Shown: piece by piece, positions 40,635-61,000 of the stretch
Position numbering within the stretch: the first letter of the stretch is position 1
How the letters are laid out: each line of letters starts with the position of its first letter
From: Scenedesmus sp. PABB004
Lineage: Eukaryota
Assembly (NCBI GenBank): GCA_014905635.1
Contig: JABVCE010000007.1
Coordinates: 372,001 to 436,000, forward strand
DNA: 64,000 nucleotides
Direction of reading: 5' to 3'
Notes under the pieces: model-generated
Told to the model about the DNA's origin: nothing
The model's input: only the letters and a program-made list of their open reading frames with translations
The model's database searches: none
Made by a program: the position numbers and the translations under genes

Positions 40635-43600
40635 ATGTCGCAGCACGCGCCGGCCGCCGGCCGCGAGGGCGGCGGCTCGCCCGCGCCCGCGCCCATGCCT
40701 GCGCGCCCCGATCCGGCCGCCCTCGCGGTGGCGCGGCAGCCGCTGGAGCACGCGGCAGCCGGCCCTTGCGTGCCCGCGCTCGCGTCGGTCGCCACGCGCC
40801 GCCTGGCCTGCGACGCGCCCTGCGACGACCTCGAGCCGCTCAATCGCGAGCGCGGCGCGCGCGGCGGCGGGCGGCGCCGCAGCAGCGGCCGCAGCAGCTG
40901 CAGCAGCGCCGGCGCCGAGGGCGGCGGCAGCAGCTGCCTGAGCAGCAGCAGCAGCCCCGCCAAGCCGGCCTGGGAGTGCGCCTCGCCCGGGGCGCTCGAG
41001 GCGGGCCGCCACCCGGCGCAGAGCGCCGCCGATGTGCACGCGGCCACGGGCGGCGCGCCGGCGAGCGCCGTGGGCAGCTACGCCAGCCCCCTGGCGCGGC
41101 GCTTTGTCGCCGTCAAGCTCCAAGAGCCGCCCAACCACGGTGAGCGGCGCACGCTCCGCGCCGGGGCGCGCGCGCGCGCGCGCCGCCCAGCTGCGCCCCC
41201 GCTGCGCCGGGCCGCACGCCGCCGCGCCGCGCCGCGCCGCGCCGCAGCCCCCGACGCGCTGGAGGGCGTGCGCAACCTGCTGGCGGCGGGCCTCACCCTC
41301 GGCGCCGCGCCCGGCACCGGCGCGGTGGTGAGCCAGTCGACCGGCTTCTCGGGCTGCTACCAGCTGGTGTTTGAAATAGTGATCCCGGAGCAGGAGGCGC
41401 GCGCGGGCGGCGCCGCCACCGCCGCGACCGCCGCGCAGCTGGCGCAGCTGCAGCGCTCGGTCGAGCAGCAGGTGCGCGACTGGCTGCCGCGCGGCTGGGA
41501 GCTGCGCGGCGTGCAGCTCGGGCACAAGCGGGCGAGCGACGGCGGCGGCGCCGGCGGCGCCGGCGGCCGGCCCGGCGGCGCCGGCGGCGACGCGTCGGGC
41601 GGCGACGACCCGCCCCCACGCCCGACCCGGCGGCGCCCGACGCGCCGGGCGTCGCGCCGGGCGTCGCGCCGGGCGACGACGGCGACGGCCTCGCGGCCGC
41701 GCTCGCGGGCCTGTGGAGCAAGGGCGGCGAGCGGGGCGTCAACCTGGACCCCCTCGGCCTCGCGCTGCCCGCGCTGCGGCTGCCCGGGTCGCCTGCGGCA
41801 GCCACGGGCAGCAGCCCGCGCGGCGGCGGCACCGCCATCGCCGAGCTCGGCATCTCCAAGGCCGTTGTCGGCCAGCTGCTCTGCGGCGGGCACGACAGCG
41901 TGCGCGTGGTGGTCGCGGCGCAGCCGAGCGGCACGGCGCTGCTGGACGAGACCTGGCTGCTGCCGCCCGACGCGGGCGCCGACAAGCACCTCACCCTCGC
42001 GTTCAGCGCCGAGGCCGCGCTGCAGCTCACGGCGCGCGGCGGCGACGGCGGGCCGCCCGTGCGCGTGCTGTCGGTCGTGGCACTGGCCGGCGCGCGGCGC
42101 CGCCGCGGCCCGCCGGCCGGCGGCGAGGCGGCCGACGGCGCCGCCGGCTGCGGCGGCGGCGGCGGCAGGGGCCCTGCGGCCTCGCGCGCGAGCAGCGCCA
42201 GCAGCAGCAGCAACAGCCTCGCGGCGCGCCCGAGCGACGGCGCGCCGCCCGCGTCGCCGGCGTTGGCGGCCCCCGGCGTGGTGGCGCACCTGCCGCTGCT
42301 GCTGCTGCCCGCCGCGGCGCAGCGCGAGCTGCAGCAGCTGCTCGCGGCCGCGGTCGCCGGCGGCATGTACCCACGCCAGGCCAACCAGCAGGTCCTGCTG
42401 CCCCTCGTTCAGGACTGGGCGCTCCTGCTGCTCTGGGGCGACGGCAACGGCGCCGCCGCCGCGGCCGCCGCGGCCGCCGCGGCCGCCGCCGGCGCGCCGT
42501 CGCAGCCCGCGCACATGCAGGCTGCGCTCACGTCCTCCCTCGCCGCATACTTCAGCCAGCACGGCATGGCCGAGTGCGCGCGCCTGCTCAACCACGGCGC
42601 GGGCCGGCCGCCGCCGCGCGGCGGCGAGCCCGGCGCCGCCGCCGCCGGGCCGGGCGCGGGGCCCGCGGCGCGCGAGCCCGGCGCCGCCGGCGGCGACGCG
42701 GGCGCCGTGTTTGGCGCGAACGGGCCCGGCAACATCGTGCAGCGCTACCCCGCCGAGTTCTACCTCTACTCATTCAAAATCGTGCCCTGCGCGCAGCAGT
42801 TCTCACACGACTGGTGCGCGCGCCGCGCCGCCGCGCCGCGCCGCGTCGCGTGTGCGCACCGCGCGCGCGCGCGCCGGCCCCGCGCCGACCCTGCGCCCGC
42901 GCCTGCCCGCCACAGGAGCCTGTGTCCGTTTGTACACCAGAATGAGAAGGCGCGGCGGCGCGACCCGCGGCTGCACAGCTACGAGCCGCTGCTCTGCCCC
43001 GACGACCGCAAGGTGCCCCGGGGGCGGCGCGGGCGGCGCGCACCGACACGGGGGGTGCAAAGCGGAGCAGCGCAGCGCGCGCGCCGCGCGCGCGCGCGCC
43101 GCTCACGCCGCTCGCGGCCGCGCGCGCAGGGCACGCACTGCCCGCGCGGCGACGCCTGCCCCTACACCCACAACGTCTATGAGTACTGGCTGCACCCCAA
43201 GCGCTTCAGGACAAAGGCGCGCCGCGCCGCGCCGCGCTGGGGGCCGAGCGGCCGCCGGGCCGCCGTCGAGCCCCGCCGCCGTCGAGCCTCGCCGCCGACC
43301 CCCACCTCCACGACCGCCCGCGCGCGCAGATGTGCCAGCAGGGCGCGGCCTGCCGCCGGCCGCTGTGCTTCTTCGCGCACAGCCTGCAGGAGCTGCGCTA
43401 CCCGGACCAGCAGGAGGCGCCCGCGGACCCGCCCGCCGCGGCGGCGCCGCCCCCCAGCGGCGGCGCCGCGGCCGCGCCCCCAGCGGCGGCGCCGCGGGCG
43501 GCGGCGGCAGCGCGCCGCGCCCCGCGCAGTCAGCGGCGGCGCAGCAGGCGCAGCAGGCGCAGCAGGCGCAGCAGGCGCAGCAGGCGCAGCAGGCGCAGCA

Positions 43601-44467
43601 GGCGCAGCAGGCGCAGCAGGCGCAGCAGGCGCAGCAGGCGCAGCAGGCGCAGCAGGCGCAGCAGGCGCAGCAGGCGCAGCAGGCGCAGCTGCTCAGCGCG
43701 GCCGCGATGTACCAGGCCGCCTCGGGCTCGCTGCCCTGGTCGCTGCTGGACGCGGGCGCGGGCGCTGGCGGCGCCGCGGGCGGCCAGGCCGGCCTGTTCA
43801 AGCCGGGCGCGGCCGCGGCGGCGGTGGCTGCCATGGGCGGGTTTGGCGCTGGCGCCGGCGGCGCCTTTCCCACCAACGAGCAGCTCCTGCTGCTGCAGCA
43901 GGGCGGCGCCGGCGGCGCCGGCGGCGCGGCGTGGGCTCCGGCAGCCTGCTGCAGGACGGCATGCTCCTCGGCGCCGCCGGCCTGCAGGCAGAGCAGCACC
44001 CTGCCAGCTACCTGCTCCCGCCGGCGGGGCAGCCCGGCGGCGACGCCGCGGCGCAGCGCCTCGCGGAGCTGATGGCGGGGCTCCGCGGCTTTGGCGGCGA
44101 CGACGCGGCGCTGCCGGATAGCCTCATGTATGGCGGCGGCGGCATCGCGCAGCAGGCCGGCGGCGGCGAGCCGCCGGGCCTGATTGAGCGCGGCGCGGCC
44201 ACCCAGCCGCGCCAGCTGAGCTCGGACGCGCTCAGCCAGGAGCTGCTGGCGGGCGCGAGCCTGCAGCAGCTCTGGCAGCAGCAGCAGCAGCAGCAGCAGC
44301 ACCAGCAGCAGCAGCACCAGCACCAGCAGCAGCAGCTCTGGCAGACACAGCAGGGCGAGGCGCAGCAGGTGCCGCGCGCCTACCAGGCGCCCAGCAGCCA
44401 GGCCATGGCGCTCGACGCGCTGCAGGCGGCGATGCAGCAGATGCAGTGGCCGCCGCGCCAGCAGTGA
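40635..44467 (+). CDS. Tandem CCCH zinc-finger (RR-TZF/Unkempt-type) protein with a long N-terminal region and Q-rich tail
   Basis: FYLYSFKIVPC...HDW-SLCPFVHQNEKARRRDPR, CPRGDACPYTHNVYEYWLHPKRFRT and CRRPLCFFAH. Apparent single-base frameshifts near 41615, 43485 and 43935. Confidence 0.82.
43539..43689 (+). repeat. (GCGCAGCAG)n coding repeat, about 16-17 units (AQQ)
   Basis: Directly visible perfect 9-mer array. Confidence 0.95.
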
Positions 44468-45872: not shown

Positions 45873-47067
45873 TCACGCGTCCTCGTCCGTCTCGTACTCG
45901 CTGCTGCTGCCCTCCAGCGCGGAGAGCAGCCCGCCGTCGCCGTCGCCGTCGTCGTCGTCGTCGTCCTCGCCGTCGGGCTCGTCGTCGTCGCTGTCCACGC
46001 TGATGTCCAGCTCCTCGGGGTCGAGCCCCGCCGCGAGCGCCTCCTCGTACATGTCCGCCAGCGCGTCCTCCAGGCTCATGCCCTCGCCCAGCCCCAGCTC
46101 GTCGTCGCCGTCGTCGCCGTCGTCGCCCTCGCCGTCGCTGCCCGCGCTGCCGCTGCCGGGGTCGCCGGCGTCCAGCCCGCCCAGCAGCGCGGCGAGGCCG
46201 CCGCCGCCGGCGCCGTCGGCGCCGTGCTCGCCGCCCTCGTCGTCCTCGTCCTCCTCCTCCGACTCGTCGCCGCCGCCGTCGCTCTCGTCGTCGCCGTCGC
46301 CCGCGGCGGGGCGGCAGCGCCCGACCTCGTACAGGCGCACGCTGCTGCTCACGCTGCCCTCCAGCCCAGCGCCGATGTCCACCGCGACGGCGGCGAGGTA
46401 CGAGTCGCTCGGGTCGAGGCACAGGTCCAGCACCGCGCGCTCGACCTGGCGCGGCGTGGCGGCGCGGGTGCCGGGCCTCAGGGTTTAGGTTGTGGCTGCA
46501 ATCGCGCGCGAGCGGCGCGGCGCGCGCGCGTGTGCGCGCGCGCGACGACGCTCGCCGCACACCTGCACGCTGCCAATCTCTGCGTAGCTCCGCGCGTCCA
46601 GGCTGGTGAAGCTGGTCGCGAGCGCGTGGCGCCGCCGCTTGGCCTGCAGCAGCGCGGCCATGCTGTCGTCGGGCGGGCGGCGCAGCCACGCGCACAGCAC
46701 GTCGCCGCCTGCCGCGGCGGGGCGGCGGCGGCGCGGCGCGGCGCGGGGGCGGGCCGCGCGTCAGCGTCTGGGGCGGCGTTTGTCGAACGGCGACGCGCGG
46801 CGGCGCGGCGCGCGCGCCCGCCCCCGCCCCCCCCCCCCCCCCCCCCCCCCCCGCGTTGAAGGCGATCGAGGTGCCGTCCAGCAGCGGCACGCTGCGCAGC
46901 AGCTTGCGCGTGCGCAGGTCCCAGACCTCGCTGTTTAGTATGATCTCGGCGCCGCCCGGGTGGAAGCAGCCGCCCGCGCCGCCCGCGGAGAGCTGGTCAA
47001 ACGTGTGCAGCGGCGCGGGCACGCGCGGGTCCCACAGCGTCGCGCCCCACAGCACCAGCTCGCCTGC

Positions 47068-47102
<35 letters not shown>

Positions 47103-47233
47103 AGGAGGGCGGGCGGGCGCTCAGGGGCGGCCCAGGCGGTGGCGAGGCGCCGCAGCGAGCGCGGCGCGGCGGGCGGCGCCAGCGCACCCGACGGGCTGAA
47201 GCACGCCGCCGCCGCGCCGCGCACAAATTCGCC

Positions 47234-47264
<31 letters not shown>

Positions 47265-48925
47265 CCGCGCCGCCGGCGCCGGCGCCGGCGCCGCCGCCGC
47301 CGCCGCGCGCTGCCGCGCTGCCTCGTCGAGCGTCGCGACCACCTCGCCGGTGCTGGCGTCGTAGACGCGCGCCTGCCGCGGCGAGCCGCCGACGGCGACG
47401 CCGACCAGCTGCAGGCGCGGCGCGGGGCGGGGTGAGCGCGGCGTGCGCCGCGTGCCGCGCGCGTCTGTGCAGCGCGGCGGCGCGCCGAGTGCGGGTACCT
47501 GGCTGGCGGTGGGGTTGAAGCGCCCGCGGCTGAGCCCCGGCCAGCTGAAGAGCGGGCCGGTGTCAAACCCGTCTGCGCGCCACAGCAGCACCTCGCTGCG
47601 GCTGCTGCTCAGCAGCAGCTGGTCGCCGGGCGCGCCGCCGGCCCAGTTGGAGGCCTGCGCGTGTGTGCGCCGCGCGCGTGCGCGCGAGTGCGCGTGCGGC
47701 GCGCGCGGACGCCCGCGCGCCGCCGCGCCGCCGAGCCGCCGCGCCGCCGCGCCGCCGCGCCTGCAGCAGGTTGATGGGCGCCGAGTGCGCCTCGACCAGC
47801 TCCACGCTCTCCCCGCTGTACGCGTCGTGCAGCCGCAGCTCCCCGCCGGCCGTGCCGGCGACGAGCACCTCGAAGCCCCGCAGGAAGGCGCACGCGGTGA
47901 GCAGCGGCCCGTCGTCGCGCAGCGTCTGCGTGAGCCGGAAGCGGCTCCACACGAGGCGCCGCGTCGCGGCGGCGCCGCCTGGCGGCGCGCGGGCGGGCGG
48001 CGCGCGGGCGGCGAGCACGGCGTCAGCGCGGCGCGGCGCGGCGCGGCGTCGCCACCTGCGGGCGCGGCGGCGGCGCGCGCGCCGCCGCCGCGCGGCGAGC
48101 GGCGCGGCGCCGGGGCCGCGCGGCGAGCGGCGCGGCGCCGGGGCGGCGCCCACCGCGGCCGCCGAAGCCGCCCCAGAGCTCCTGCCGCGCGCGGCGCAGC
48201 GCCACGTTGGCGGGCGCCTGCAGCGGCCGGCTGGCCACGGGCAGGGCGTAGGGCTTGAGCAGCGACACGGGCGGCACCACCGACACGGGCTGCGCCGACG
48301 CGAGGCACGCGGCGCGGTGCTGCTGGCGCAGGTACGCCGTGACGATGGCGCCCAGCCGGCTGTTCACGGGCGGGCCTGCGCGGCGCGGCGCCGGCGCGGT
48401 CGGCGGGGCGCAGCGGGCGGCGCGGCGGCCCGCGGCGCGCGGCAGCCTGTGGCGGTCTGGTCCGCGCCGGCGGCGGCGGCGGCGGCCTTGGCGGCAGCGG
48501 CGGCGGCGCGCCGCACCGGTCATGACCTCGCGCGCCGCGACCTGCACGTGCAGCGGCAGCGCCTTGGGCTCCGGCACGGCCTCGGCGATGGGCGTCATTC
48601 GCTGCGGCCCGTCCACGCCGCCCGACAGCCGGCGCTGCAGGCCGCCGCCCGCGCGGCCGGCCTGCCACCGGCACGGCAGGTTGGTCAGCAGCGGGTTGAC
48701 GCCGCTCGGCACGGCCGCGGCGGCGGCGGCCGCCGCGGCGCCGCCGCCGGGGCCGCCGCCGGGCTCGGCATGGCCGGCAGGCCGGGCGTGGCGCCCGGGG
48801 CGGCGCCGGGGCCCGACGTGTCCAGCGGCGCGAACCCCGCCCACACGCCCGGGGAGGGCTGGGGACGAACCCAAAGCCGCCGCCGCCGCCGGGGCCCGGC
48901 GCCGGGGGTGCGGGCTGCGCAGCGC

Positions 48926-48956
<31 letters not shown>

Positions 48957-51900
48957 GCGCCGGGCGGCGCGGGCGTGGCGGGCGGCGCCTGGGTGTGGAA
49001 CACCTCCAGCTGCTGCAGCTGCAGCTGCTGCTGCTGTTCCTGCTGCTGTCCGGGCTGCTGTCCGAGCTGCGTCTGCTGCCACTGCTGCGTCTGCTGCCAC
49101 TGCTGCTGCTGCTGCTGCTGTCCCAGGCCGTGCACGTACTCTGCGTCGCTGCCTGCCAGCCCCGCCGCCGTGGACTTGACCGCCGACCGGCTGCCGCGCT
49201 TGCCGCCGCTTGGCGCCGTCCCAGCGCGCGGCGACGCGGGCAGCTCGTCGCCCGCGCCGGCAGGCCCCTGCTCGGCGGCGAGCGCCTCGCCCAGCGCCTG
49301 GCGCTTTGGCGCGGGCGTCTCAAAGCCGCCGACGCCGGCGCCGGCCGCGCCGGCGCCCGCGCGCCGCTTGACGCCCGCCGCCAGCGCCGGCGGCGGCGGC
49401 GGCGACATGCCGCCGGGTGCGGCCTTGCCGGGCTGCTGGTGCTGCTGGTGCTGCAGGTGCTGCTGGTGCTGCTGCTGCTGCTGCTGCTGACCGTCCGAGT
49501 GCTGCGGCTGCTCGCCGTCGGCCGCCGCGCCGTCCTTGCCTCCCAGGTGCTGCAGCAGCCCCGGCCCCAGGCTCAGCGTGCGCCGCCGCTCCGCCGCGGC
49601 CTTGGCGCCCACGGCCGCCGCCGGCGTGAGCGCCAGCACGCCCGGCGGCGGGCTGAGCCCCCGCACGTCCGGCGCGGCGCCGGCGGCGCCGCCGCCGCCC
49701 GGCGCGCCGCCGCCCGCCGGCGACGCGCAGCCCGCGAGAAGCAGCGCGGCCGGGTGCGGTGCGGCCGCGGCGGCCGCGGCCGCGGCCGCCGCCGCCGCGG
49801 CGGCCGCCGCCGCGTGCGGGCGGCTGCCGGAGAGGCCCGCCTCCTTGGCGAGCGCCGCGGCCGCGGCGTGGAGGCCCGAGGCCTTGAGGTGCTCGTACAC
49901 GAGCAGCAGCAGCTCCTGGGGCTGGTAGCTGATCGGCGTCGCCGCCGCGATCGCGGCGCGCTCAATCTTGAGCAGCGCCGGCGCCGCCGCGTCGGTCGCG
50001 GCCGCCGCGGCGAGGCGCTGCTCGCGCCCGCCGCCGCCGCCGGCGCCGCCGGTCGTCACGGCGATGAGCTCCAGCGCCACGCGGTGGAAGCGCTCCTGCC
50101 ACACCGCGCCTGCGCGCGCGCGCGTGCGAGGGGGCGCGAATGAGCGACTGAGCGGATCGCGCGCGCGCAGTCGGCGGCGGCGGGCTAGGAGTAGGCACAG
50201 GTTGGTCTCTCGCGATTTACAGAGACAGTCTGCCTGTCCCCTCCCGTTTGCGTGGTACGTGTTTTTATTCTGCCCTCTCTCCTCTCGCTCGCTCTTTATT
50301 GTGTGGCCGCAATTGCGGCGGCGCAACCAACAAACCACGCTCACAACATTGCAGGTGGGGGACAAACACACATATCGTACAGCCGCTGACTGGCGAACCA
50401 CTCAAGAGCTCAGGCCTGCCCGCCCTGCAGCGCGGCAGCCACGCGCTGCTTCACGGTCTTGCCCGCCTTGCTGCCGCCGGTGTCGGCGCTGCTCTTCTTG
50501 CCCACCAGGCTGTCCACGGCGGTGCAGGCCATGAGCCCCGCCCACGCGGCGAGCGCGGCGGCGAGCGAGGCCACGGGCACGCCCGTCTCGGCGCTAAGCT
50601 GCGCCAGCGGGCCGAGCCCGGTTGCGGCCTCGCCGAGCAGCGCCGCCGCAAAGCCGAGCTGCGCGAGCCGGCCGGCAAAGAGCTCGTTCTGCGCGGTGAA
50701 GCCCCAGTCGGTCACGCCGAGCGTCTGCTTCAACGGCCCCGCCGCCTCGGGCGGCGGCGGCGACCGCGCCTCGGCGGCGAGGCGGGCCCACGTCTCGCGC
50801 TTGAACGTGCCCGACCCGGGCGCGAGCCCGGCGAGGAGGTTGAAGCCGACCAGGCCGGAGAGGAAGACCCCGACCTGGGCGGCGTCGAGGCCAAACGTGT
50901 ACCCCATCTGCGCGAGCGGGCCCTGGCCGCCAGACAGCAGCTGCGCGCGGCGAGCGAGGCGGGGGAGGGCGGCGGCGGGCGGGCGGGGGGGGTAGGGCGT
51001 CCGGCCGAGGGGGAGCGGGGGCCGCGCGCGCGCGCGCATCGTGTGGCTGTCGCGCGCCAGCCGCGGCGGCGCGTGCCCGCGCAGCCGGCGGCAGCGCACC
51101 TCGCCGACGACGCTCGCGGCAAAGCCGGCCATCGCGAGGCGGCCGACAAAGACCTCGTTGTCGCGGGTGAAGCCGAGCTCAAACGGCTGCTTCGCGCCGC
51201 CCGTGCGCTGCGCCGGCGCGGGCTGCTGCTGCTGCACGGGCGCGGCCGAGCTGGCTGCGCTCGCCGAGGCAGCAGACGGCGACGCGCGGCGGGCCACGAG
51301 CTGTGGTGGGGGGCGGCGGGGGACGGGCGCGGCGGGCATGAGAGCAGGGCGCGACTCGTGGGGCTGCATGCGCGGCCGCGCATGCACGGCTGTCTGGCCC
51401 GACCCGCGGCGTGCTGTGGCCGGCAGCGTGCACACACACCTGCTTCACATCCTTGACGAACGCGGCGCGGGGCACCACGGCGCGAGAGCGGGAGGGCTTG
51501 GACGCGACCGCGGGCGCGGAGGCGGCGCGCTTGGAGAGGAGCGTGGCGGCCATGGTCGCGGCGGGGTGTCGACGGCGGCGAGTGTGTGGGCGCTGGGCTG
51601 CGCGGTGTCACGGCTGCAGGTCGACAGGCTGGCGGAGGTCCTTGATTGTGACCGGGTGGCAGGCGCGCGCGTTTTATGCGCGCGCGCACCGCGGGAGTCG
51701 GGCAGGCGCCCGCGCCCCGGCCACTCGCTCGCGTGCGGTCGGCGCGTTTGTGTGGTTGATACGGTCCCGGACACCCTGTCCACGCCCGCGCCGGGCCGTG
51801 CGCGCCTCACGCGCGGTGGAGCCACCGTGTCCCACCGTGTCCGGCTTCGCGAGGCCCCCGCACGGCATGCCGTGCGGTCGCGGTCCCCCGCGCGCCGTGA

Positions 51901-53211
51901 TTGTGGGCCGCCCGACCTATGCCACCGACTGAACGTGTTTGCTGCGTCCCGCAGCGGCTGGGCAGCGCGCGCCGGGCGCGCCCCCCGCGTGTGGCGGCAG
52001 CTCCGCATGCGCATGCGCGCGCGCTCGCCAGCGCTCCGGCCTCCCCGCAAACGCCCCAAACCCAAACGCCACACACAAACAAACACACGCAGCCCGCCCA
52101 AACCGGGCTCACCTCCGGCTGCGCCGGGCGCCGCGCCCTCGCCGCCCGCGTTGGCCTCGCCGCGCCGGCTCGACGCCCCGCCGGCCACGCCCGGCGCGAC
52201 CGGCTCGCGCACGAGCTCCGCCAGCAGCTTCCCCACCTGCGCGCACGGACGGTCGCGGCGGGCGCGCCGCGTGAGGGGCGCCGCGCCGGGGGGCGCGAGG
52301 GACATGCGTGCGCCTCGTCCGCCGCGCTCCGCCGCGCCGCGCGCGCGCGCCTGGAGCTTGGTGAGGATGTGTCGTATCGGCGCGTCCCGCGCCAGGCCCA
52401 GCACCGCGCTGCACGCGAGCGCGCGCACGCGGTCCGCCGCCGCGGGCGCGAGGTGCTGCCGGCTCTGCGCACGAGAGGCGGAGGGCGAGAGCGTCCATGC
52501 GCGCCCACGCGGCGGCGCAGCTGACAGCGCCGGCGGGGCCTCCCCGGCGCGCCGCGCACCTGCAGCAGCATGAGCAGCACGCGGATGCCGTTGCTGCTGC
52601 GCACCGCCTGCCGCGCAGCGGCGTAGCCCGCCTCCAGCGCGTCGCCGAGCGAGGGCCAGCTGCGGCTCGTCACCGCCGAGGGCCCGAGCTCCAGCGCCGG
52701 CGGCGCCTGCGCGGCGCCGGCGCCACCCCCGGCGCCGCGGTCGGGCGGGGGCGGAGGGCCGCGCCAGCGCGCGCGCACGCGCGCGCCCGGCCGACCGCCC
52801 GCCCGGCTGCGGCGCGCGCCGGCCGGCCCCGCACCGTGAGGTCGGCCGCGGAGGGCGGCCCGCCTGGCTGCGGCGTTTGGTGCGCCTCGAGCGGCTTGTC
52901 AGCGGCCGGCGCCGCGGCGCTGCCGGTGCTGCCCGTCGCGGGCAGCAGGTAGGCCAGCGACGGCGGCGCGGTCACACAGTTGCAGATCACCTGCAGCGCC
53001 GTCGCGATCACCTGCGGCGCAGAGCGGCGCGCAGCAGCGGGCGCGATGGGCCCACGGCGGCGGCGGCGCCGCGGCGCACCAGCCCGCGGCGCGGCGCGGC
53101 GGCCGGCGCCTCGGGGCGGCGCGGGCGCGGCACCTCGGGGTCTGCCAGGCCGTAGAACGGCGTCGCGTTGCCCGTGCTCGCGGCGTGCAGCAGCGTCGCC
53201 ATGCCGCTGCG

Positions 53212-53242
<31 letters not shown>

Positions 53243-56200
53243 CCGGCGCGCGCGCGGCTGGGCGGCGCCGACGCGGCGATGATGTCGCGGCGGGGCAGCG
53301 GGGAGAGGGTGATGAGCTGGAGGACCTCCAGGGAATAGAGGCAGATGTCACTGAAGTACCTGTGCTCAGTTCAATTCAAGTCAAAACGTCCAAGTGGCAG
53401 TCGGCGCCCGATTGGCATGCATGAATTGGAAGCGGCGGGGCGGGCGGGCGGGTCTGAGAAACTGCCGCGGCCCCCGCGGGCGCGCGGGCGGGCCGCGCGG
53501 GCGCGCGGGCGGGCGGGCGGGCGGCCCGCCCGCCGCCGCGGGGCCCGGGCCCGGGGGGGCGCACCGCTCCTCGCCGGGCATCGCGCGCACGAGCTCCAGG
53601 ATGAGTCCGACAAGGCCCTGCTCAGACAGGCGCTCGAGCAGCGGCCACCTGCGCGCGGCACACGCGGGCGCCGCTCGCCGGCGCGCGCCTGGCGCGGCGC
53701 GGTCGCGCGCCGCGTCCCCCCGCGGCGTCGCCCCGGCGCGCGCGCGCCGCCCCGGCGCCGCGCACCGCGTGCGCACAAACGCCTCGGCCAGCTTCGCGTC
53801 GGCCGCGAGCGCGGCGATGAGCTCCGTGACCGCCGCGGCGCTCGTGTTGAGCGCCTTGTGCGGTGCCGGCGGCGCGGACGGCGCCTGGCAGTGGCAGTGG
53901 CGGCGGCGGCGGCGGCGTCGGGGGGTGGGGCGGGGCCGAGTCGCCCCCGCCCCCGCCCCGCCCCCGCCCCCGCCCCCCCCGCCCCCGCCCCCGCCCCGCC
54001 CCCCCGCCCCCGCCCCCGCCCCCCCCCGCCCCCCGCCCCCGCCCCCGCCCCCGCCCCCGCCCCCGCCCCCGCCCCCGCCCCCGCCCCCGCCCCCGCCCCC
54101 GCCCCCGCCCCCGCCCCCGCCCGCCCCCGCCCCCGCCCCCGCCCCCGCCCCCGCCCCCGCCCCCGCCCCCCCCCGCCCCCGCCCCGCCCCCGCCCCCGCC
54201 CCCGCCCCCGCCCCGCCCCCGCCCCCGCCCCCGCCCCGCCGAGCGGGCGCGCCTGGCCGTCGCGCAGGCGGCGCTGCAGGGAGGCCATGTGCGCGACGAG
54301 GTGGGCGCGCACGTATTGCAGCAGCGCCCGGCTGGCGTGGTAGGCGACCTGAGGCAGCAGGCGCGACGGGCGGGCGTCGCCGTCGACCGCAGCCCCTGCC
54401 GCGCGCGCTCGCCGCCACGCTCGCCGCCGCCGCGGCGGCGCCACGCCGCGCCGCGCCGCGCCGGCCCGCGCCTGCTTCTCGGCGCGCAGCTCCGCAGGGC
54501 CGCCCTCCTGCAGCAGCTGCACGACGTGGCGCAGCGGGTACAGCAGGCGGTGGAGGCCCTCCTGCGCGTCAAAGGCCTCGAGCAGCACCGGGAAGTGCAC
54601 CGCGGCGTCAAAGAACAGCGCCGCGTTCTTGCGCGCCGCGTCGCTGCTCGCCGCGAGCAGCGACAGCCCCGCGCCGACGAGCCCCGCCGGCACGGGCGGC
54701 GGCAGCGCGCACGCGCGCTCAAACGCGAGCGGCAGGCTGGAGAGACCAAACAGCGCGAGCGAGAGACCCATCGCGGTGTGCGCGGTCCTGCGCCGGCGGC
54801 AGCGGCGGCGGCGACGGGGGGGGGGGGGGGGGGGTGTCAGCGGCGCCGGCTGGGGTGCGTCTGCGGCGGCGGCCCCCGCCCGCGCCCTGCGTCCGCGCCC
54901 CCAGCAGCACGCACCGCGGCACCCCCAGCAGCAGCTGCACGCCGCCCTGCTCCACCAGCAGCTCGCCGAAGCGCCGGTGCGCGAGCAGGCTGCACACGAG
55001 CTGCATGACCTCGTTCAGCAGCACGCCGCTGCCCTGCCACGCGGTGAGCAGCGCGCAGCAGCACTCCACGCCCTGCGCCGCGAGGAAGGGCCCCAGCGCC
55101 TCCACGTACTCGCCCGTGCACGTGAGGCAGCGCACGACGCCGAGCAGGCGCTTCACGCGCAGCGCCGCGACGTCCGAGCCAAAGCCCTCGGCCGCCGCCG
55201 CCGCGGCCTCCGCGAGCAGCGGCGCCGCGCCGGCCGCCTGCCCCGCGCCGCCGCCGCCGTCGCCCTGGCTGCCGCCGGCGCCTTGGCTGCCGCCGGGCGC
55301 CGGCGCCGCCGCGGCCGGCTGCTGCTGCGGGCCGCGGTGCGAGAGCACCGCGCGGCGCAGGTAGGCGCAGCAGGCGGCCACGATCGGCGTGCGCACCGCC
55401 TCGTCAGCGTACTCCTCGTTCGCCAGCGCGATGGCCAGCAGGCCTGCGGCGCGGCGCGGCAGCGGCAGCGCGTCTGCCTGCCTGCCTGCTCCCGCCCGCG
55501 CGGCGGCCAGCGCGTGCGGCGGCGGCGGCGGCGGCTCGCACCGAGCGCGTAGGTGTCGCGCGCCTCCTCCAGCAGCGCGGTGAGCGTCGCCGGCGGCGCG
55601 TCGCCGAGCAGCGGCGCGCGGTCGAGGCCGTCGAGCGCCCAGCGCCCGAGCCGCTCCACCAGGCCCTCCTCAGTCAGGGGGTACTGGAAGAGCCAGCAGT
55701 CGAGGCACGCGAGCAGCAGCCGCAGCGCCGCGACCTGCTGCTCCAGCGACGCGGACCGCCCCAGGACCCAGCCGTCGACGAGCGCGTCCTGCAGCTCCTC
55801 CGCGTCCTGCGCGCGCGGACGGCGGCGGAGCAGCGGCGCGTCGAGGCGTCGCGGCGCGGCTGGCGGCGGCGGGCCGGCCCCGCGGCCTGCCGGGCGCCGG
55901 CGCGCGCCTTGATCGCCGCGAGCAGCTTTCCGATGGTGTAGTGCCCCCGCAGGCTGGGGCTGGCGTGCGGGTCGCCCACGAGCGCGCGGAAGCGGCCCTC
56001 CTCCGCCTCGACCAGCGCGGCGAGCTGGTGCACCGCCAGCACGCGGTCCTCGACCGGCCCCGCCTCCGCGCGGCGCAGCAGCGCGCCGATGGCCTGCGCG
56101 CGGCGGCCGCGGGCACGGGAGCGCGGGCGGCGACGTGCGCGGCGGGCGGCGGCGCGCGGCGGGGCGCGCTGCTGCCGCGGTCCGCAGCGGCGCCGCGCGC

Positions 56201-56254
56201 CTCGCGGTCCAGCGCCGGCGGCGCCGGCGGCAGCGGCCGGCCGGCCAGCCACAT
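45873..56254 (-). CDS. DCAF1: DDB1- and CUL4-associated factor 1 (DCAF1/VprBP), many exons
   Basis: ARKNAALFF, EAFDAQEGL, AVRSSNGIRVLL, RALACSAVLGLARD..IRHILTKLQ, KIERAAIAAATPISY plus LisH (ELLLLVYEHLKASGL), IVTAYLRQQH, WSRFR, WD40 repeats (GCFHPGGAEIILNSEVWDLR) and an acidic tail. The start codon is tentative. Confidence 0.93.
50217..50221 (-). promoter_or_regulatory. TGTAA polyadenylation signal (PsbS), inside the DCAF1 intron
   Basis: TTACA on the plus strand, about 190 nt downstream of the PsbS stop in an AT-richer segment. Confidence 0.6.
50410..51553 (-). CDS. PSBS: Photosystem II subunit S (PsbS), 281 aa; exons 51440-51553, 51100-51300, 50410-50940; nested in a DCAF1 intron
   Basis: Transit peptide plus two LHC-like halves: LGFTRDNEVFVGRLAMAGFAASVVGE-LLSGGQGPLAQ and WGFTAQNELFAGRLAQLGFAAALLGEAATGLGPLAQLSAETGVP. 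Both introns are GT-AG, phase 0; the CDS totals 846 nt. Confidence 0.92.
53943..54239 (-). repeat. (GGGGGC)n array, about 300 bp, in a DCAF1 intron
   Basis: CCCCCG units are directly visible on the plus strand. Confidence 0.92.
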
Positions 56255-57311: not shown

Positions 57312-57862
57312 GCGCGGCCAGCAGCAGCAGCAGCAGCAGCAGCAGGAGCAGCAGCGGCGGGCGCGGGCGCGGGAGCGGGCGCCCGGGCGCCTGCCGGGGC
57401 GGCGGCGCGGCGCGGGGCAGCCGCGCGCCGCCGCGGCGCGGCTGTACTACTAGGTAGGCCACCGAGGCGGCGCCGGCGCTGCAGGAGCAGCGCCGGCGCC
57501 CGCGGTGGCGGGCACGGCGACGGACGCGGCGGCGGCAGCGCCAGGGCGCGCGCCGGCAGCCGGGGGCTGCGGGCTGGGAGGGCGGGCGGGAGGGCGATGG
57601 CTGGCAGGGCGGGGCGGGCGCGGCGCGGCCGCGGGGATGAGAGCAACGTGACGTGCCGTCGAGCGCCGTGCGTGGGTCCGGCCTCAGTCCCTGCCTCGAC
57701 CACAGCTGGTCGACATCACCCCGCCCGTCTGCCCGCGCTCGCTGCACAGCCTTCACACCCGGCCCCGCCAGCCACAGCCCGCGGCGGCGCCTCTGCGCCG
57801 CGCGCGTCCTACCCGCCCCGCCCCTGCGCCAGCCCAGAGCGCCCGGGGATCACCGCCGCGCC

Positions 57863-58011
57863 TCACAGCTCGTCGTGCCCGCCGTCGCCCTGGATCTTGG
57901 CGCGCAGGCCCGCCAGGTCCTGCTGGCGCTGCGCCTCCTCCGCCGCAATCTCGGCCGCCAGCGCCGCCTCCTCCGCGAGCAGCGCCGCCATGCTCGCCTC
58001 CAGCTCCTGCA

Positions 58012-58054
<43 letters not shown>

Positions 58055-61000
58055 GGCGGCGGCGCGGGCGGCGCGGGGGGGGCGCGTCGGCGGCCCGCGC
58101 TGCGCAGTCCCCTGCCCAGGAAGGGCTCGCCGGCGGCGCCGGCGGCGGCGCCGCCGGCGGCGCCGCCGGCGCCCCGCCCCCCCCCCCCCCCCCCACCTCC
58201 AGCTTCTCCTTCTTGCAGGCCGCGGGCGTCGCCGCGTGCACGACGTAGGTGCAGACCTCGGGCTCGCTCGCCTCCCACGCGCGCTCGGCCGGCCCGCACT
58301 CGATGCGCACGCGCAGCGAGCGCGCGGGCGCTTTGTGGCAGTAGTCCCCGCCGTCAAAGAGCGCCTCGCTGCCGCCCTTCTCAAAGCCCTTCCACACGCC
58401 GAGGCTCGTCTCGTGCCCGCCGCCGTTGTCGACCTGCACCGCCTTGTCAAAGAAGCAAAACCTGGTTGGTGTGGTTGGTGGGGTTAAGCGCCGCGGCGGC
58501 AGGGGTGCGAAGCAGCGGAGCCGCGTCGGCGGCGCGCGGGGCACGCGGGCCGCGGCGCGGGCGGGGCCAACTGGCGGGGCCTGCGGCGGGGCGCGGCGCG
58601 GGCGGCGCCAGGTGGCTCACTTGTAGGTGAACTGCGGCATGCGTGCCTCGAGGCACTTGTTCATGAGCCCCGCCCACGCGTCGTTGAAGGTCACGCCGAC
58701 CTGGGGCGCCGCGGCGGCGGCGGCGGCGGCGGTCGGCGGTCGGCGGTCGGCGCGCGCGGCAGGCGCGCCTGGGCCAGCGCGCGCGCCGCGGCGCGGCGCT
58801 CTGGGCCCACCTGGCGCCCGACCCGCTCCTTCTCGGCGCGCAGCTCACTCAGCTTGCGCTCCGCGGCGGCGTGGTCGCTGCGCACCTTGCGCAGCTCGCT
58901 CTCTGCGGCGGCCGCGCGGCGGGCGGCGGCGGGCGCAGCGCGTGGGTGCGCGCACGCGCCGCCGCCGCCGTCGGCTGCAGCCTCGCGCGCCGTGCCGGCC
59001 GCCGCCGGCAGCGCTGCGCGGGGCGTGGGGCGCGGGCGCGCTGCTGCTGCGCACCGTCGAAAGGCACATACTCGGGGTCGTGCGCTGCGCCCGCCGGCGC
59101 GTGCCAGCTCGGGTCCTCCTCCTCGGGCGGCGCCTCGTCCTCGCCGTCGTACGGCGTGGGCGGCTCGTCGTCCTCGGGCAGCGGCCCGTCGCCCTCCTCG
59201 CCCTCGGGCGGCGGCGCTGCGGGCACGGGCGCGGGCGTGTGGGGGGGGGGGGCTTGGGCGCGCCGGCCGGGCGGCGCGCCGCGCGCGGCCGGCGCGGGTG
59301 GCCGTGGGTTGCGCGAGGCTTGAGCGCCAGCTTGCCCGCACCTGTGCCGGTGGGTGTGATGATCTTAGCGACGGTCTCCTTGGCCTTGGACAGCACGCCG
59401 CTCAGCGACCAGCCGCCTGGCGCGCGGCGGCGGCAGGCGCGCGGCGGCGCTGTCAGGCGGGGCGCCCCCCCCCCCCCCCGCGAGGCATGGGCCGGGTCGC
59501 TGGCCTGGCCCTGCCCTCGCGCGGCGCCGCCGCGACTCACTGTCGGCCTTCACGTCCGCCGCTGGCTCACCGGCAGCCGCATCCCCCGCTCCGTCCGCTG
59601 ACTCCTGCGGCGGCGGCGCGGCGGCGGCGGCGGCGGCCGCGCGGGTCGGGCGCCATCGCGGGCCTGGCAACAAACACGCCACGCAAGGGAGCGGCCGGGG
59701 GCAGCCAGCACGGAGGCAGCGAGCATGCGGGGGCACGCCGCCGCCACCGCCGCGCCCTCGCCGTCCGGCGCCGCTGCGGGCGCCGCCGTGGCACGGCGGC
59801 CCGGCGCCACCGCGGCGTGGCGTGGCGTGGCGTGGTCACCTCAGCGCCCTCGCCAGCAGCCGCCCGCCGCCCAGCACCACACAGCCAGCTGCCAGCACGA
59901 TCCACAGCACCGCGTTGGCCCAGCGGGACACCGCCACGCCGGCGGCGGCGCGGCTCGCCAGCGCGTCCGCCGCCGGCGCGTGGCGGCGCCGCAGGCGCGC
60001 TAACCGCGGCGCGCTGCCGCTGGCGCTGCCGGCGCGCGGCGCGGCGCGGAGGTGCGGCACACGCACCGATCCGGCGGGGCCGGCCGCCGCAGGGTCGTTG
60101 GTCCACTGAGCCGCGATGCGCCGGCCGCGCTCCTCGTCGGTCTGCGAACAGGCAGGCCGGCGGCGGGCGCGTCGGCGGCGGCGGCCGCGCGCCGAGGCGC
60201 CCCGCCGCTGCTGGGCGCCCGCCGTCCGCGCTGCCGGGCGGCCGCGCGGCCGCGCCCCGCACCTCCTCCTGCTCGCCGGCCGCGGCCTGCTCTGCCGCCA
60301 CCGCCTCTGCCTGCGTCGCCTCCGCGCCGTCCTGGCCCGCCGCCGCCGCCGCGGCCGCCGCCGCGTCCGCCGCCGCCGCCTGCTCCGCCGCCGCCGCGTC
60401 GGCGGCCGCCTTGGCCGCGGCCTCCTCCGCCGCCTTGGCCGCCGCGGCCTCGCGCTCCGCCTTGCGCTGCGCGGCGAGCGCGTCCTGCTCCTTCTTGTGC
60501 GCGGCACGCTTCACCTCCGTCTCCTCCTCCACGCGCTTCTTGTCAGCTGCGCGGCGCGCACGCGCGCGGCGCAGGCGGCGCGGCTGCTCGGCGCCGCGCC
60601 GTCACCCGCCGCGCCACGCCGCGTCGCGCCGCCCCGCGCCCCGCGCACCCGTGAGCTTCTCGAGCTCCGCCTCGGCGCGCGCGATGTCGCCGTCGACGTT
60701 GGCGTGGCGCTGCTTGATGTTCTCGCGCACGCCCGCCGCCGACGCCGCGTACGCGGCCTTCTTCTCCAGGCTGGCCTTGTACTCGCCGATGCGCGCGCGC
60801 AGCGCGTCGCGCGTCGCGCTGTTCTTCTCGATGCACGTGTTCTTGCAGCCGCTCAGCTCGTCGCTGCCGTCGCAGCAGTCTGCGGCGAGCAGGCGGCGAC
60901 GCGACGCGCGGCGCGGCGCGGCGGGTCGGCCGCGGGACTCCCGGGCGGCGCCCAGGGCGGGCGGCACGGCTGCGCGCGCCGCGGTCGGCGGCCCGCGCCG

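What the first reader, a model, noticed from the sequence alone, without database searches (positions are those of the whole stretch)
50110..52112. Complete PsbS photoprotection gene nested on the same strand inside a 2-kb intron of DCAF1
Seen: the DCAF1 exon ending ...VGKLLAELVRE...GAAG has a GTGAGC donor at 52112 and joins in phase (G|GC) to the CAG acceptor at 50110, continuing AVWQERFHRVALELI...LisH. The host is therefore one continuous gene. This 2003-nt intron is roughly ten times the local norm and holds an intact 3-exon PsbS plus about 560 nt of upstream spacer. Established: nested genes are more often antisense; green-algal PsbS is strongly high-light/UV inducible; CUL4-DDB1 ligases (DET1, COP1/SPA) control algal photoprotection genes; DCAF1 is a CUL4-DDB1 substrate receptor. 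Inference: PsbS induction could interfere with DCAF1 transcription or splicing, coupling a stress gene to a component of the ligase family that regulates it.
Basis: partly seen in the sequence, partly recalled or inferred. Interest (0 to 1): 0.85.

Follow-up and report, generated by a model that had tools for sequence, protein, structure and literature searches.

The report
PsbS gene nested in DCAF1 intron
A complete light-stress gene (PsbS) sits, in the same direction, inside one oversized intron of a ubiquitin-ligase receptor gene (DCAF1) in a very GC-rich green alga; a Scenedesmus genome appears to share the layout, so it is a real but fairly ordinary nested gene whose proposed regulatory role is untested.

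Summary
On the minus strand a GTGAGC donor at 52112 and a CAG acceptor ending at 50110 bound a 2003-nt intron. It is about 17 times the median (~115 nt) of 18 other inferred host introns. Inside lie a 559-nt promoter-like spacer, an intact three-exon PsbS (281 aa, best solved relative spinach PsbS, E 3.7e-29), an AT-richer 3' UTR and a TGTAA poly(A) signal.

The host is DCAF1/VprBP: four exons hit human DCAF1 in collinear order. The phase-1 join gives an open frame. In 9 of 9 green-lineage DCAF1 proteins tested, a single alignment crosses the join. The downstream LisH exon has no in-frame ATG, so it must be spliced to something upstream.

Scenedesmus sp. NREL 46B-D3 appears to share the layout. 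One public model ends at the same exon. The next fuses PsbS directly to the LisH exon. Both sit on one contig with consecutive accessions.

No RNA read tests the 52113^50109 junction. Only short metagenome contigs were available; they cover PsbS exon 3 and its 3' UTR.

The idea that PsbS induction tunes DCAF1 is plausible but untested.

Verdict: a same-strand, intron-containing nested gene, a new member of a known kind. Interest is moderate to low.

The parts
45873..56254 (-). Host gene, a DCAF1/VprBP homologue. The CDS is inferred from ATG 56254 to the stop at 45875-45873, with about 21 exons.
   Evidence: Four exons hit human DCAF1 collinearly: residues 330-405, 750-779, 828-880 and 1235-1304 (13 of 13 hits are DCAF1/VprBP). 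Blocks are 57-100% identical to Scenedesmus models P0025 and P0030. The acidic tail is visible in the ORF 45873-46484.
52113..52236 (-). Host exon 12 (VGKLLAELVRE...GAAG plus one base). It ends in phase 1.
   Evidence: It is 124 nt, so one base is carried over the intron.
50110..52112 (-). The 2003-nt host intron that holds PsbS. Donor gag|GTGAGCCC, acceptor GCGCGCGCAG|g.
   Evidence: Both ends match the local splice pattern of the other host introns.
51554..52112 (-). The 559-nt spacer, the likely PsbS promoter and 5' UTR. It has a TATA-like CATAAAA at 51678 and CCACA cores at 51994, 51906, 51755 and 51589 (sense) and 52073 (antisense).
   Evidence: There are 5 CCACA/TGTGG cores against a mean of 1.74 in 2000 dinucleotide shuffles; 2.05% of shuffles reach 5. 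No 559-nt window of the 64 kb reaches 5; the maximum is 4. The CCACA core was reported in Chlamydomonas qE gene promoters (PMC6717296, passage).
51440..51553 (-). PsbS exon 1 (38 codons, transit-peptide region).
   Evidence: The spliced protein aligns from residue 3 with homologues.
51100..51300 (-). PsbS exon 2 (67 codons, ending with helix 1 ...FAASVVGE).
50410..50940 (-). PsbS exon 3 (176 codons plus the TGA stop at 50412-50410).
   Evidence: Spinach PsbS 4RI2, E 3.7e-29. There are 24 homologues, the best at E 4.3e-57.
50200..50409 (-). PsbS 3' UTR (55% GC in an ~80% GC window), with TGTAA at 50221-50217.
   Evidence: TGTAA occurs only 4 times on the minus strand of the window. Contigs of 151 nt from an RNA library (X3: 50252-50399) and from a run guessed to be DNA (X1: 50217-50367) lie here with 2 differences each.
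48517..50109 (-). Host exon 13, starting AVWQERFHRVALELI. The LisH motif is at about 49918-49838, followed by a long low-complexity stretch.
   Evidence: There is no in-frame ATG between the stop at 50404-50402 and 49408.
47230..47322 (-). A place in the host where the frame shifts by one base inside a GGC-repeat linker and no canonical intron fits.
   Evidence: Exons downstream remain 76-100% identical to the Scenedesmus protein.

Best explanation
PsbS is an independent, intact, three-exon nuclear gene lying in the same orientation inside intron 12 of a single DCAF1/VprBP gene. PsbS has its own promoter-like spacer, transit peptide, stop codon, AT-richer 3' UTR and TGTAA poly(A) signal.

Full-length DCAF1 mRNA must be made by polymerases that run through the PsbS promoter and poly(A) site, followed by splicing of exon 12 (donor at 52112) to exon 13 (acceptor at 50110) across 2 kb.

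Shown here: the anatomy, the identity of both genes, the collinearity of the host with orthologues across the join, phase compatibility, and the apparent presence of the same layout in Scenedesmus sp. NREL 46B-D3. Inferred: that the junction is used in vivo, that PsbS is transcribed from its own start site, and any cross-talk between the two genes.

The layout is most likely a tolerated, inherited insertion or duplication of PsbS into an intron. Any cross-splicing would be harmless because every chimeric join is out of frame.
For: Identity of PsbS:
- spinach PsbS 4RI2, E 3.7e-29.
- 24 homologues; the best named ones are from Tetradesmus and Scenedesmus.
- the spliced 281-aa protein aligns over residues 3-273 with P0001 (54% identity, E 1.3e-90) and has four hydrophobic segments.

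Identity of the host:
- four exons hit human DCAF1 at 330-405, 750-779, 828-880 and 1235-1304, in order.
- named plant 'DDB1- and CUL4-associated factor homolog 1' proteins.

Continuity of the host:
- exons 1-16 joined give 1514 aa without a stop. The join is at residue 785, and 9 of 9 DCAF1 proteins tested give one BLASTP HSP across it (for example P0134, query 664-857, E 2.6e-20).
- plant-like P0027, Volvox P0033 and Astrephomene P0034 read straight through the equivalent point.
- exon 13 has no in-frame ATG for 331 codons after the upstream stop, and only a phase-1 join is open. The phase-0 join stops after 17 codons and the phase-2 join after 48.
- the donor GTGAG and acceptor GCGCAG|G fit the other host introns.

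Conservation:
- Scenedesmus sp. NREL 46B-D3 model KAF6254729.1 (770 aa) ends right after the homologous exon with a 26-aa unrelated tail.
- KAF6254728.1 (1143 aa) starts as PsbS and runs directly into AVWQERFHRAALELI.
- Both, and a second PsbS (KAF6254731.1), list one contig of 236,950 nt.

PsbS signals:
- TGTAA 189 nt after the stop, a 55% GC 3' UTR, a TATA-like box and enriched CCACA cores.
- near-identical 151-nt contigs of an RNA library on exon 3 and the 3' UTR.
Against: - No RNA read or contig shows the 52113^50109 junction, a PsbS start site or a poly(A) site. The only runs found were three freshwater metagenome or metatranscriptome runs holding 5-7% of the sampled words, and none bridges either intron boundary.
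- RNA libraries can carry DNA, so PsbS expression is only hinted at.
- The Scenedesmus evidence is indirect: gene models, one shared contig length and consecutive accessions. I could not read that contig.
- The host frame cannot be kept with canonical introns at 47322-47230. Either the assembly has an indel there or the host is damaged downstream.
- The host's own 3' end has no TGTAA on the minus strand, so TGTAA is not the only signal this organism uses.
- The CCACA enrichment is modest (about 2% of shuffles reach it).
Confidence: 0.8

Rival explanations
1. DCAF1 has been split by PsbS into two separately expressed genes: an Arm-like N-half ending after exon 12, and a LisH-WD40 C-half. This is how the public Scenedesmus annotation models it.
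For: The Scenedesmus sp. NREL 46B-D3 annotation has separate N-half (770 aa) and C-half models. No RNA evidence for the junction was obtained.
Against: - Exon 13 has no in-frame ATG upstream of or within the conserved LisH region; the first Met is 331 codons in.
- Conserved coding starts exactly at the acceptor.
- The N-half has no conserved terminal exon or stop. Read-through runs 222 codons in the window, against a 26-aa unrelated tail in Scenedesmus.
- The Scenedesmus C-half model only gets a start codon by borrowing PsbS exons and skipping 21 conserved PsbS residues, which looks like an ab initio artefact.
- The phase and the orthologue alignment fit one gene.
Confidence: 0.08
2. The nesting acts as a regulatory device. 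Strong light or UV induction of PsbS lowers full-length DCAF1 output, or host read-through damps PsbS in low light. The route would be promoter occlusion, premature polyadenylation at the PsbS TGTAA, or mis-splicing to out-of-frame, decay-prone chimeras.
For: - The same-strand layout forces host polymerases through a promoter and a poly(A) signal.
- All four cross-splices give early stops.
- The layout appears to be kept in another genus.
- Chlamydomonas PSBS1 and PSBS2 are strongly high-light induced (log2FC 6.5 and 10.5; supplement of PMC11313482).
- Transcriptional interference in nested pairs is documented in other organisms (PMC3192792 and PMC5174743; listings and abstracts only).
Against: - No expression data exist for this organism.
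- Conservation between two fairly close genera is also expected for a neutral arrangement.
- DCAF1 has no shown role in photoprotection in the papers searched.
- Drosophila data suggest that same-strand nesting with introns is selected against rather than exploited (PMC3814207).
Confidence: 0.1
3. Assembly artefact: PsbS was wrongly placed between two halves of DCAF1.
For: No genomic read spanning both boundaries was available. The assembly may have an indel at 47.3 kb.
Against: An independently assembled and annotated genome (Scenedesmus sp. NREL 46B-D3) shows PsbS directly upstream of the LisH exon and the N-half as the adjacent model on the same contig. Contigs of a ~95%-identical relative in run X2 cover parts of the spacer, PsbS and the 3' UTR without rearrangement beyond small indels.
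Confidence: 0.02

Closest known systems
Host/nested gene pairs in eukaryotic introns (for example Drosophila melanogaster, PMC3814207; mammalian pairs, PMC11694760)
   Same: A complete protein-coding gene with its own promoter and terminator lies wholly inside an intron of another gene, and the coding sequences do not overlap.
   Different: This case is the rarer configuration. It is same-strand (28.7% of Drosophila nested genes) and the nested gene has two introns (72.5% of same-strand nested genes in Drosophila are single-exon). The host intron is only 2 kb in a compact genome with ~115-nt introns. I found no description of this pair in print.
PsbS, the photosystem II 22-kDa protein (spinach structure 4RI2; Chlamydomonas PSBS1/PSBS2)
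   Same: A four-helix LHC-superfamily protein with an internal repeat. Spinach PsbS is the best solved relative. The conserved repeat motif FT..NE(L/V)F.GR.A..GF is present twice. The second lumenal glutamate (spinach E173) is kept.
   Different: The position of the first lumenal glutamate (spinach E69) is Thr here. It is Asn or Leu in the two closest full-length relatives, P0001 and T. obliquus P0003. The transit or N-terminal region is longer (281 aa). The role of E69 and E173 as pH sensors is recalled, not taken from a call.
DCAF1/VprBP, substrate receptor of CRL4 (human structures 7V7B and 7OKQ; plant DCAF1)
   Same: An Arm-like N-terminal region, a LisH motif, a WD40 propeller and an acidic tail, in the same order.
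   Different: There are long low-complexity Ala/Gly/Gln inserts. One intron is expanded to 2 kb by a resident gene. The frame may be broken at 47.3 kb in this assembly.

Membership tests
PsbS (LHC superfamily) | Sequence relationship to solved or known PsbS rather than to other LHC or LHC-like proteins | tested here: met
   spinach PsbS 4RI2, E 3.7e-29. The next best hit is an LHCI chain at 3.7e-05; homologues named 'photosystem II 22kDa protein'. Pfam PF00504 is only sub-threshold on single exons (20.3 and 16.4 bits against a cut-off of 22.3).
PsbS (LHC superfamily) | Four transmembrane helices arising from an internal duplication | tested here: met
   four hydrophobic segments at about 88-108, 120-149, 197-218 and 223-252; the second half of exon 3 aligns to both halves of 4RI2.
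PsbS (LHC superfamily) | Two lumenal glutamates (spinach E69 and E173) | tested here: not met
   The E173 equivalent is present (LSAETG). The E69 column holds Thr in the window. Among the 12 other sequences in the alignment it holds Asn (P0001), Leu (P0003), Asp (P0008), a gap (P0005) and Glu in the other 8. Only one of the two is kept. The functional meaning is recalled, not tested.
PsbS (LHC superfamily) | Intact gene: ATG, canonical introns, one terminal stop, full-length match | tested here: met
DCAF1/VprBP | WD40 propeller of DCAF1 type | tested here: met
   13 of 13 PDB hits are DCAF1/VprBP, the best at E 3.6e-15, for a single 74-aa exon.
DCAF1/VprBP | LisH motif between the N-terminal region and the WD40 domain | tested here: met
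   (PF08513, 25.9 bits against a cut-off of 21.6); aligns to human DCAF1 828-880.
DCAF1/VprBP | Arm-like N-terminal region collinear with DCAF1 | tested here: met
   human 330-405, E 0.0016; 750-779, E 0.012; HSPs with 9 green DCAF1 proteins along the whole model. The PDB E-values are weak; the support comes from collinearity and the green-lineage hits.
DCAF1/VprBP | Acidic C-terminal tail | tested here: met
   the ORF 45873-46484 ends in a D/E-rich run. It aligns with the P0030 tail.
DCAF1/VprBP | Binding to DDB1 (H-box / WDxR) | not tested
   No motif scan or complex prediction was run.
Nested (host/guest) gene pair | The guest lies wholly within one host intron and host exons on both sides belong to one transcript | tested here: inconclusive
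   The position and the homology-level continuity are met. The single transcript was not seen: no junction reads.
Nested (host/guest) gene pair | The guest has its own promoter and terminator | tested here: inconclusive
   Motif-level only: a TATA-like box, CCACA cores, TGTAA and an AT-richer UTR. RNA-library contigs cover exon 3 and the UTR but show no ends.

The most novel reading that the evidence does not exclude
The same-strand nesting of a strongly light-induced PsbS inside DCAF1 is kept by selection across Scenedesmaceae-like algae. It would work as a light-dependent switch: when the PsbS promoter fires, host transcripts are terminated at the PsbS poly(A) site or mis-spliced into out-of-frame, decay-prone chimeras. 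High light would then lower the level of a CRL4 substrate receptor, or shift it to an N-terminal-only form.
Probability: 0.08. Interest if true: 0.7.

Novelty: new member of a known kind. Interest (0 to 1): 0.35.

Why it matters
Three things follow if the structural reading is right.

1. It gives a clean, compact example of the rarer kind of nested gene: same strand, with introns, in a genome with very short introns. The layout appears to be kept in at least one other genus. That makes it a convenient natural test of how a host gene copes with an internal promoter, two extra splice-site pairs and a poly(A) signal.

2. It flags a probable annotation error in a public genome. In Scenedesmus sp. 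NREL 46B-D3, DCAF1 is split into a truncated N-half and a PsbS::DCAF1 chimera. Gene finders are likely to repeat this in related algae.

3. If expression of the two genes proved to be coupled, it would link photoprotection to a CRL4 receptor. Nothing here shows that.

Tried and rejected
- RNA and DNA read evidence. The one run search found three freshwater metagenome or metatranscriptome runs holding 5-7% of the sampled words. Laid at 90% likeness on 47000-55000, they gave only short pieces. The listed 'joints' have 20-26-nt sides, lie in repeats and do not match any splice site. None bridges 52112 or 50110. This says nothing for or against the junction.
- Own genome: none is held.
- Synteny in metagenome contigs. 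A PsbS profile scan gave 80 loci. Only L001 carries a convincing PsbS exon, and no locus has a DCAF1 match. Most hits are short LHC-helix look-alikes.
- Representative-library search with the Scenedesmus chimera (150 listed, 15 fetched). I found no further PsbS::DCAF1 chimera. P0203 is a tandem PsbS-PsbS protein. The other 135 were not inspected.
- Tetradesmus obliquus DCAF1 was not retrieved by either length-limited search (upper limit 2000 aa). So the meaning of its two PsbS genes lying three locus tags apart (OEZ86_014147/014150 and OEZ85_013888/013891) is untested.
- Chlamydomonas. I could not find what lies between PSBS1 (Cre01.g016600) and PSBS2 (Cre01.g016750). The neighbouring IDs I tried (guessed from the numbering) did not turn up in the main-text search (one unrelated hit for Cre01.g016800) or in the supplements I could search. 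One supplement was too large to read.
- Rfam found nothing in 49900-52400 at E up to 1.
- The local Pfam copy lacks the newer DCAF1 families listed for the homologues.
- Earlier scan notes: nothing relevant.
- PsbS-to-DCAF1 fusion protein or polycistronic reading: rejected. PsbS donors are phase 0 and give a stop after 17 codons of exon 13, and exon 13 has no start codon.
Full report
Setting. The window is about 75-83% GC throughout. The best PsbS and DCAF1 relatives are from Tetradesmus and Scenedesmus, so the source is a chlorophycean alga near the Scenedesmaceae. No whole genome is held for it. No protein from the same organism appeared in the protein searches; the best identity over the LisH exon was 79%.

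Check of the observation. On the minus strand, the exon 52236-52113 reads VGKLLAELVRE...GAAG plus one extra base. It is followed by GTGAGC, with the G at 52112. The run ...GCGCGCGCAG ends at 50110, and the next exon begins at 50109. G|GC makes Gly, followed by AVWQERFHRVALELI and, 63 codons on, a LisH motif (PF08513, 25.9 bits, above the cut-off of 21.6). The intron is 2003 nt.

Within it, PsbS runs from ATG 51553. Its exons are 51553-51440, 51300-51100 and 50940-50410, its GT-AG introns are 139 and 159 nt, and it has a single terminal TGA, giving 281 aa. The upstream spacer is 559 nt.

I inferred 18 other host introns with the Scenedesmus proteins as guides: 17, and the first one from the sequence and splice sites printed, compared by eye with the Monoraphidium N-terminus (P0026). 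They are 90-352 nt with a median of about 115, so the PsbS-bearing intron is about 17 times the median.

What the two genes are. PsbS exon 3 alone hits spinach PsbS (4RI2) at E 3.7e-29, while the next hit, an LHCI chain, is at 3.7e-05. It has 24 homologues at E of 0.001 or better, several of them named photosystem II 22-kDa protein. The spliced protein aligns over residues 3-273 with P0001 (54% identity, E 1.3e-90) and over 3-256 with T. obliquus P0003. It shows four hydrophobic segments.

One detail departs from the textbook protein. The column of spinach E69 holds Thr here (Asn and Leu in the two closest full-length relatives, Glu in 8 of the 12 other aligned sequences), whereas the E173 equivalent is kept.

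The host is DCAF1/VprBP. Single exons hit human DCAF1 at residues 330-405 (E 0.0016), 750-779 (E 0.012), 828-880 (E 0.00091) and 1235-1304 (E 2.5e-14 for the full-length chain, and 13 of 13 hits are DCAF1/VprBP). These hits follow the order of the exons on the minus strand. Named plant 'DDB1- and CUL4-associated factor homolog 1' proteins match the LisH exon at about 1e-15. An acidic tail ends the last ORF.

Is the host one gene? Four lines of evidence say yes.

1. Collinearity. With exons 1-16 joined, the model is 1514 aa without a stop and the join falls at residue 785. For 9 of 9 green-lineage DCAF1 proteins tested (P0134, P0136, P0137, P0027, P0140, P0033, P0175, P0031, P0182), one BLASTP HSP crosses the join. 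The sequences of P0027, Volvox P0033 and Astrephomene P0034 read straight through the equivalent point.

2. No start codon. Exon 13 lies in an ORF that opens at the stop at 50404-50402, and the first Met is 331 codons in, beyond the LisH motif. The conserved coding sequence that begins exactly at the acceptor must therefore be spliced to an upstream exon.

3. Phase. Only a phase-1 donor keeps exon 13 open. Phase 0 stops after 17 codons and phase 2 after 48. Exon 12 ends in phase 1, whereas both PsbS donors are phase 0.

4. Splice motifs. The donor gag|GTGAG and the acceptor GCGCAG|g look like the other host sites.

Against this, I have no RNA evidence. The single run search returned three freshwater metagenome or metatranscriptome runs with small shares. 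When laid, they gave 151-nt contigs on PsbS exon 3 (50485-50635 and 50533-50683) and on its 3' UTR (50217-50367 and 50252-50399) with 1-2 differences, including in the RNA library X3. A relative about 95% identical (X2) covers parts of the spacer and PsbS. Nothing bridges either intron boundary.

Conservation. Scenedesmus sp. NREL 46B-D3 has three relevant models, each listing a single contig of 236,950 nt.
- KAF6254729.1 (P0025, 770 aa) is the DCAF1 N-half. It ends directly after the exon homologous to exon 12, with a 26-residue unrelated tail.
- KAF6254728.1 (P0030, 1143 aa) begins as PsbS. Its residues 2-187 match the window's PsbS at E 1.1e-58. It then passes directly into AVWQERFHRAALELI and the rest of the DCAF1 C-half.
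- KAF6254731.1 (P0005) is a second PsbS.

A gene finder could only build the chimera if a PsbS copy lies immediately upstream of the LisH exon on the same strand. The consecutive accessions place the N-half next to it. I read this as the same nesting, mis-modelled. It also argues strongly against a misassembly in the window.

T. obliquus has two PsbS genes three locus tags apart in two assemblies. That is compatible with the same neighbourhood, but I could not retrieve its DCAF1. Only one PsbS copy lies in this window.

How it probably works. PsbS carries what an independent gene needs:
- a spacer with one TATA-like CATAAAA 125 nt before the ATG;
- five CCACA cores, against 1.74 expected from shuffles, with 2% of shuffles reaching five. 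This core was reported in Chlamydomonas qE gene promoters (PMC6717296, passage);
- a 55% GC 3' UTR in an ~80% GC setting;
- a TGTAA 189 nt after the stop, one of only four on this strand in 64 kb. TGTAA as the Chlamydomonas poly(A) signal is recalled; one search was a listing only.

About 107 nt remain between that signal and the host acceptor. Full-length DCAF1 mRNA therefore requires read-through of an internal promoter and poly(A) site, and correct pairing of splice sites across two extra donor-acceptor pairs.

All four possible cross-splices are out of frame with early stops. Exon 12 joined to PsbS exon 2 stops after 40 codons, exon 12 joined to PsbS exon 3 stops after 115, and PsbS exon 1 or exon 2 joined to host exon 13 stops after 17. 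Mistakes would therefore give decay-prone RNAs, not fusion proteins.

Whether PsbS activity changes DCAF1 output is open. It is mechanistically reasonable, since transcriptional interference in nested pairs is documented elsewhere (abstracts of PMC3192792 and PMC5174743). But nothing here tests it. The ligase receptors tied to algal photoprotection in what I read are COP1-SPA1 and DET1, not DCAF1.

Comparison and novelty. Nested genes are common in animals. In Drosophila 71.27% are antisense, and same-strand ones are mostly intronless (PMC3814207). A same-strand, two-intron guest is therefore the rarer form, but not a new kind. I found no mention of a PsbS-DCAF1 pair in six searches. The supplements of the large Chlamydomonas data sets could not all be read.

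I rate this a new member of a known kind, with interest 0.35. The structural reading has confidence 0.8. The regulatory reading has a probability of about 0.1.

Noticed in passing
window 46446-56200, minus strand (host introns): 7 of the 18 small host introns inferred from homology start with GC instead of GT (donors at 56200, 55907, 54471, 54234, 52350, 47760 and 46817). The one at 52350 is hard to avoid, because TKLQ|VGKLL is contiguous in all orthologues and no GT is nearby. GC-AG introns may be unusually common in this 80% GC genome.
   Followed up: partly
window 47230-47322, minus strand: Between two conserved WD40 exons the host frame shifts by one base inside a GGC-repeat linker, and no GT/GC...AG intron of 40 nt or more fits. 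Downstream exons stay 76-100% identical to Scenedesmus, so an assembly indel seems likelier than a dead gene.
   Followed up: partly
window 50940-50800, minus strand (start of PsbS exon 3): The position of spinach PsbS E69, the first lumenal glutamate, is Thr here (MGYTFG). It is Asn or Leu in the two closest full-length relatives, while 8 of the 12 other aligned PsbS sequences keep Glu. The second glutamate (E173 equivalent) is conserved.
   Followed up: partly
Scenedesmus sp. NREL 46B-D3 proteins P0025, P0030, P0005: The public models KAF6254729.1 (a DCAF1 N-half with an unrelated tail) and KAF6254728.1 (a PsbS::DCAF1 C-half chimera that skips 21 conserved PsbS residues) look like mis-annotations of one DCAF1 gene with a nested PsbS. 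A second PsbS (KAF6254731.1) lies two models further on.
   Followed up: partly
Tetradesmus obliquus proteins P0128/P0003 and P0130/P0129: There are two >90% identical PsbS genes three locus tags apart in each of two assemblies (OEZ86_014147/014150 and OEZ85_013888/013891). This is the same spacing as the two PsbS-bearing models in Scenedesmus sp. NREL 46B-D3.
   Followed up: no
window 50217-50683: Freshwater metagenome runs (X1, guessed DNA; X3, RNA library) hold 151-nt contigs with 1-2 differences on PsbS exon 3 and its 3' UTR. Run X2 holds a relative about 95% identical. The alga or a close relative therefore seems to occur in fresh water.
   Followed up: partly
window 41375-44467, plus strand: A long ORF with CCCH zinc-finger-like motifs (C-x-C-x-H spacing, 'CPFVHQNEKARRRDP', 'CPRGDACPYTHNVYEYWLHP') followed by a long CAG/Gln repeat. 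This is probably a separate gene downstream of the host's 3' end.
   Followed up: no
window 57753-58616, minus strand: Upstream of the DCAF1 start there is an ORF piece that resembles, from recall and untested by any tool, a glucosidase II beta / MRH-domain protein ('GDYCHKAPARSLRVRIECG...CTYVVHAATPAAC'). No second PsbS copy lies in the window.
   Followed up: no
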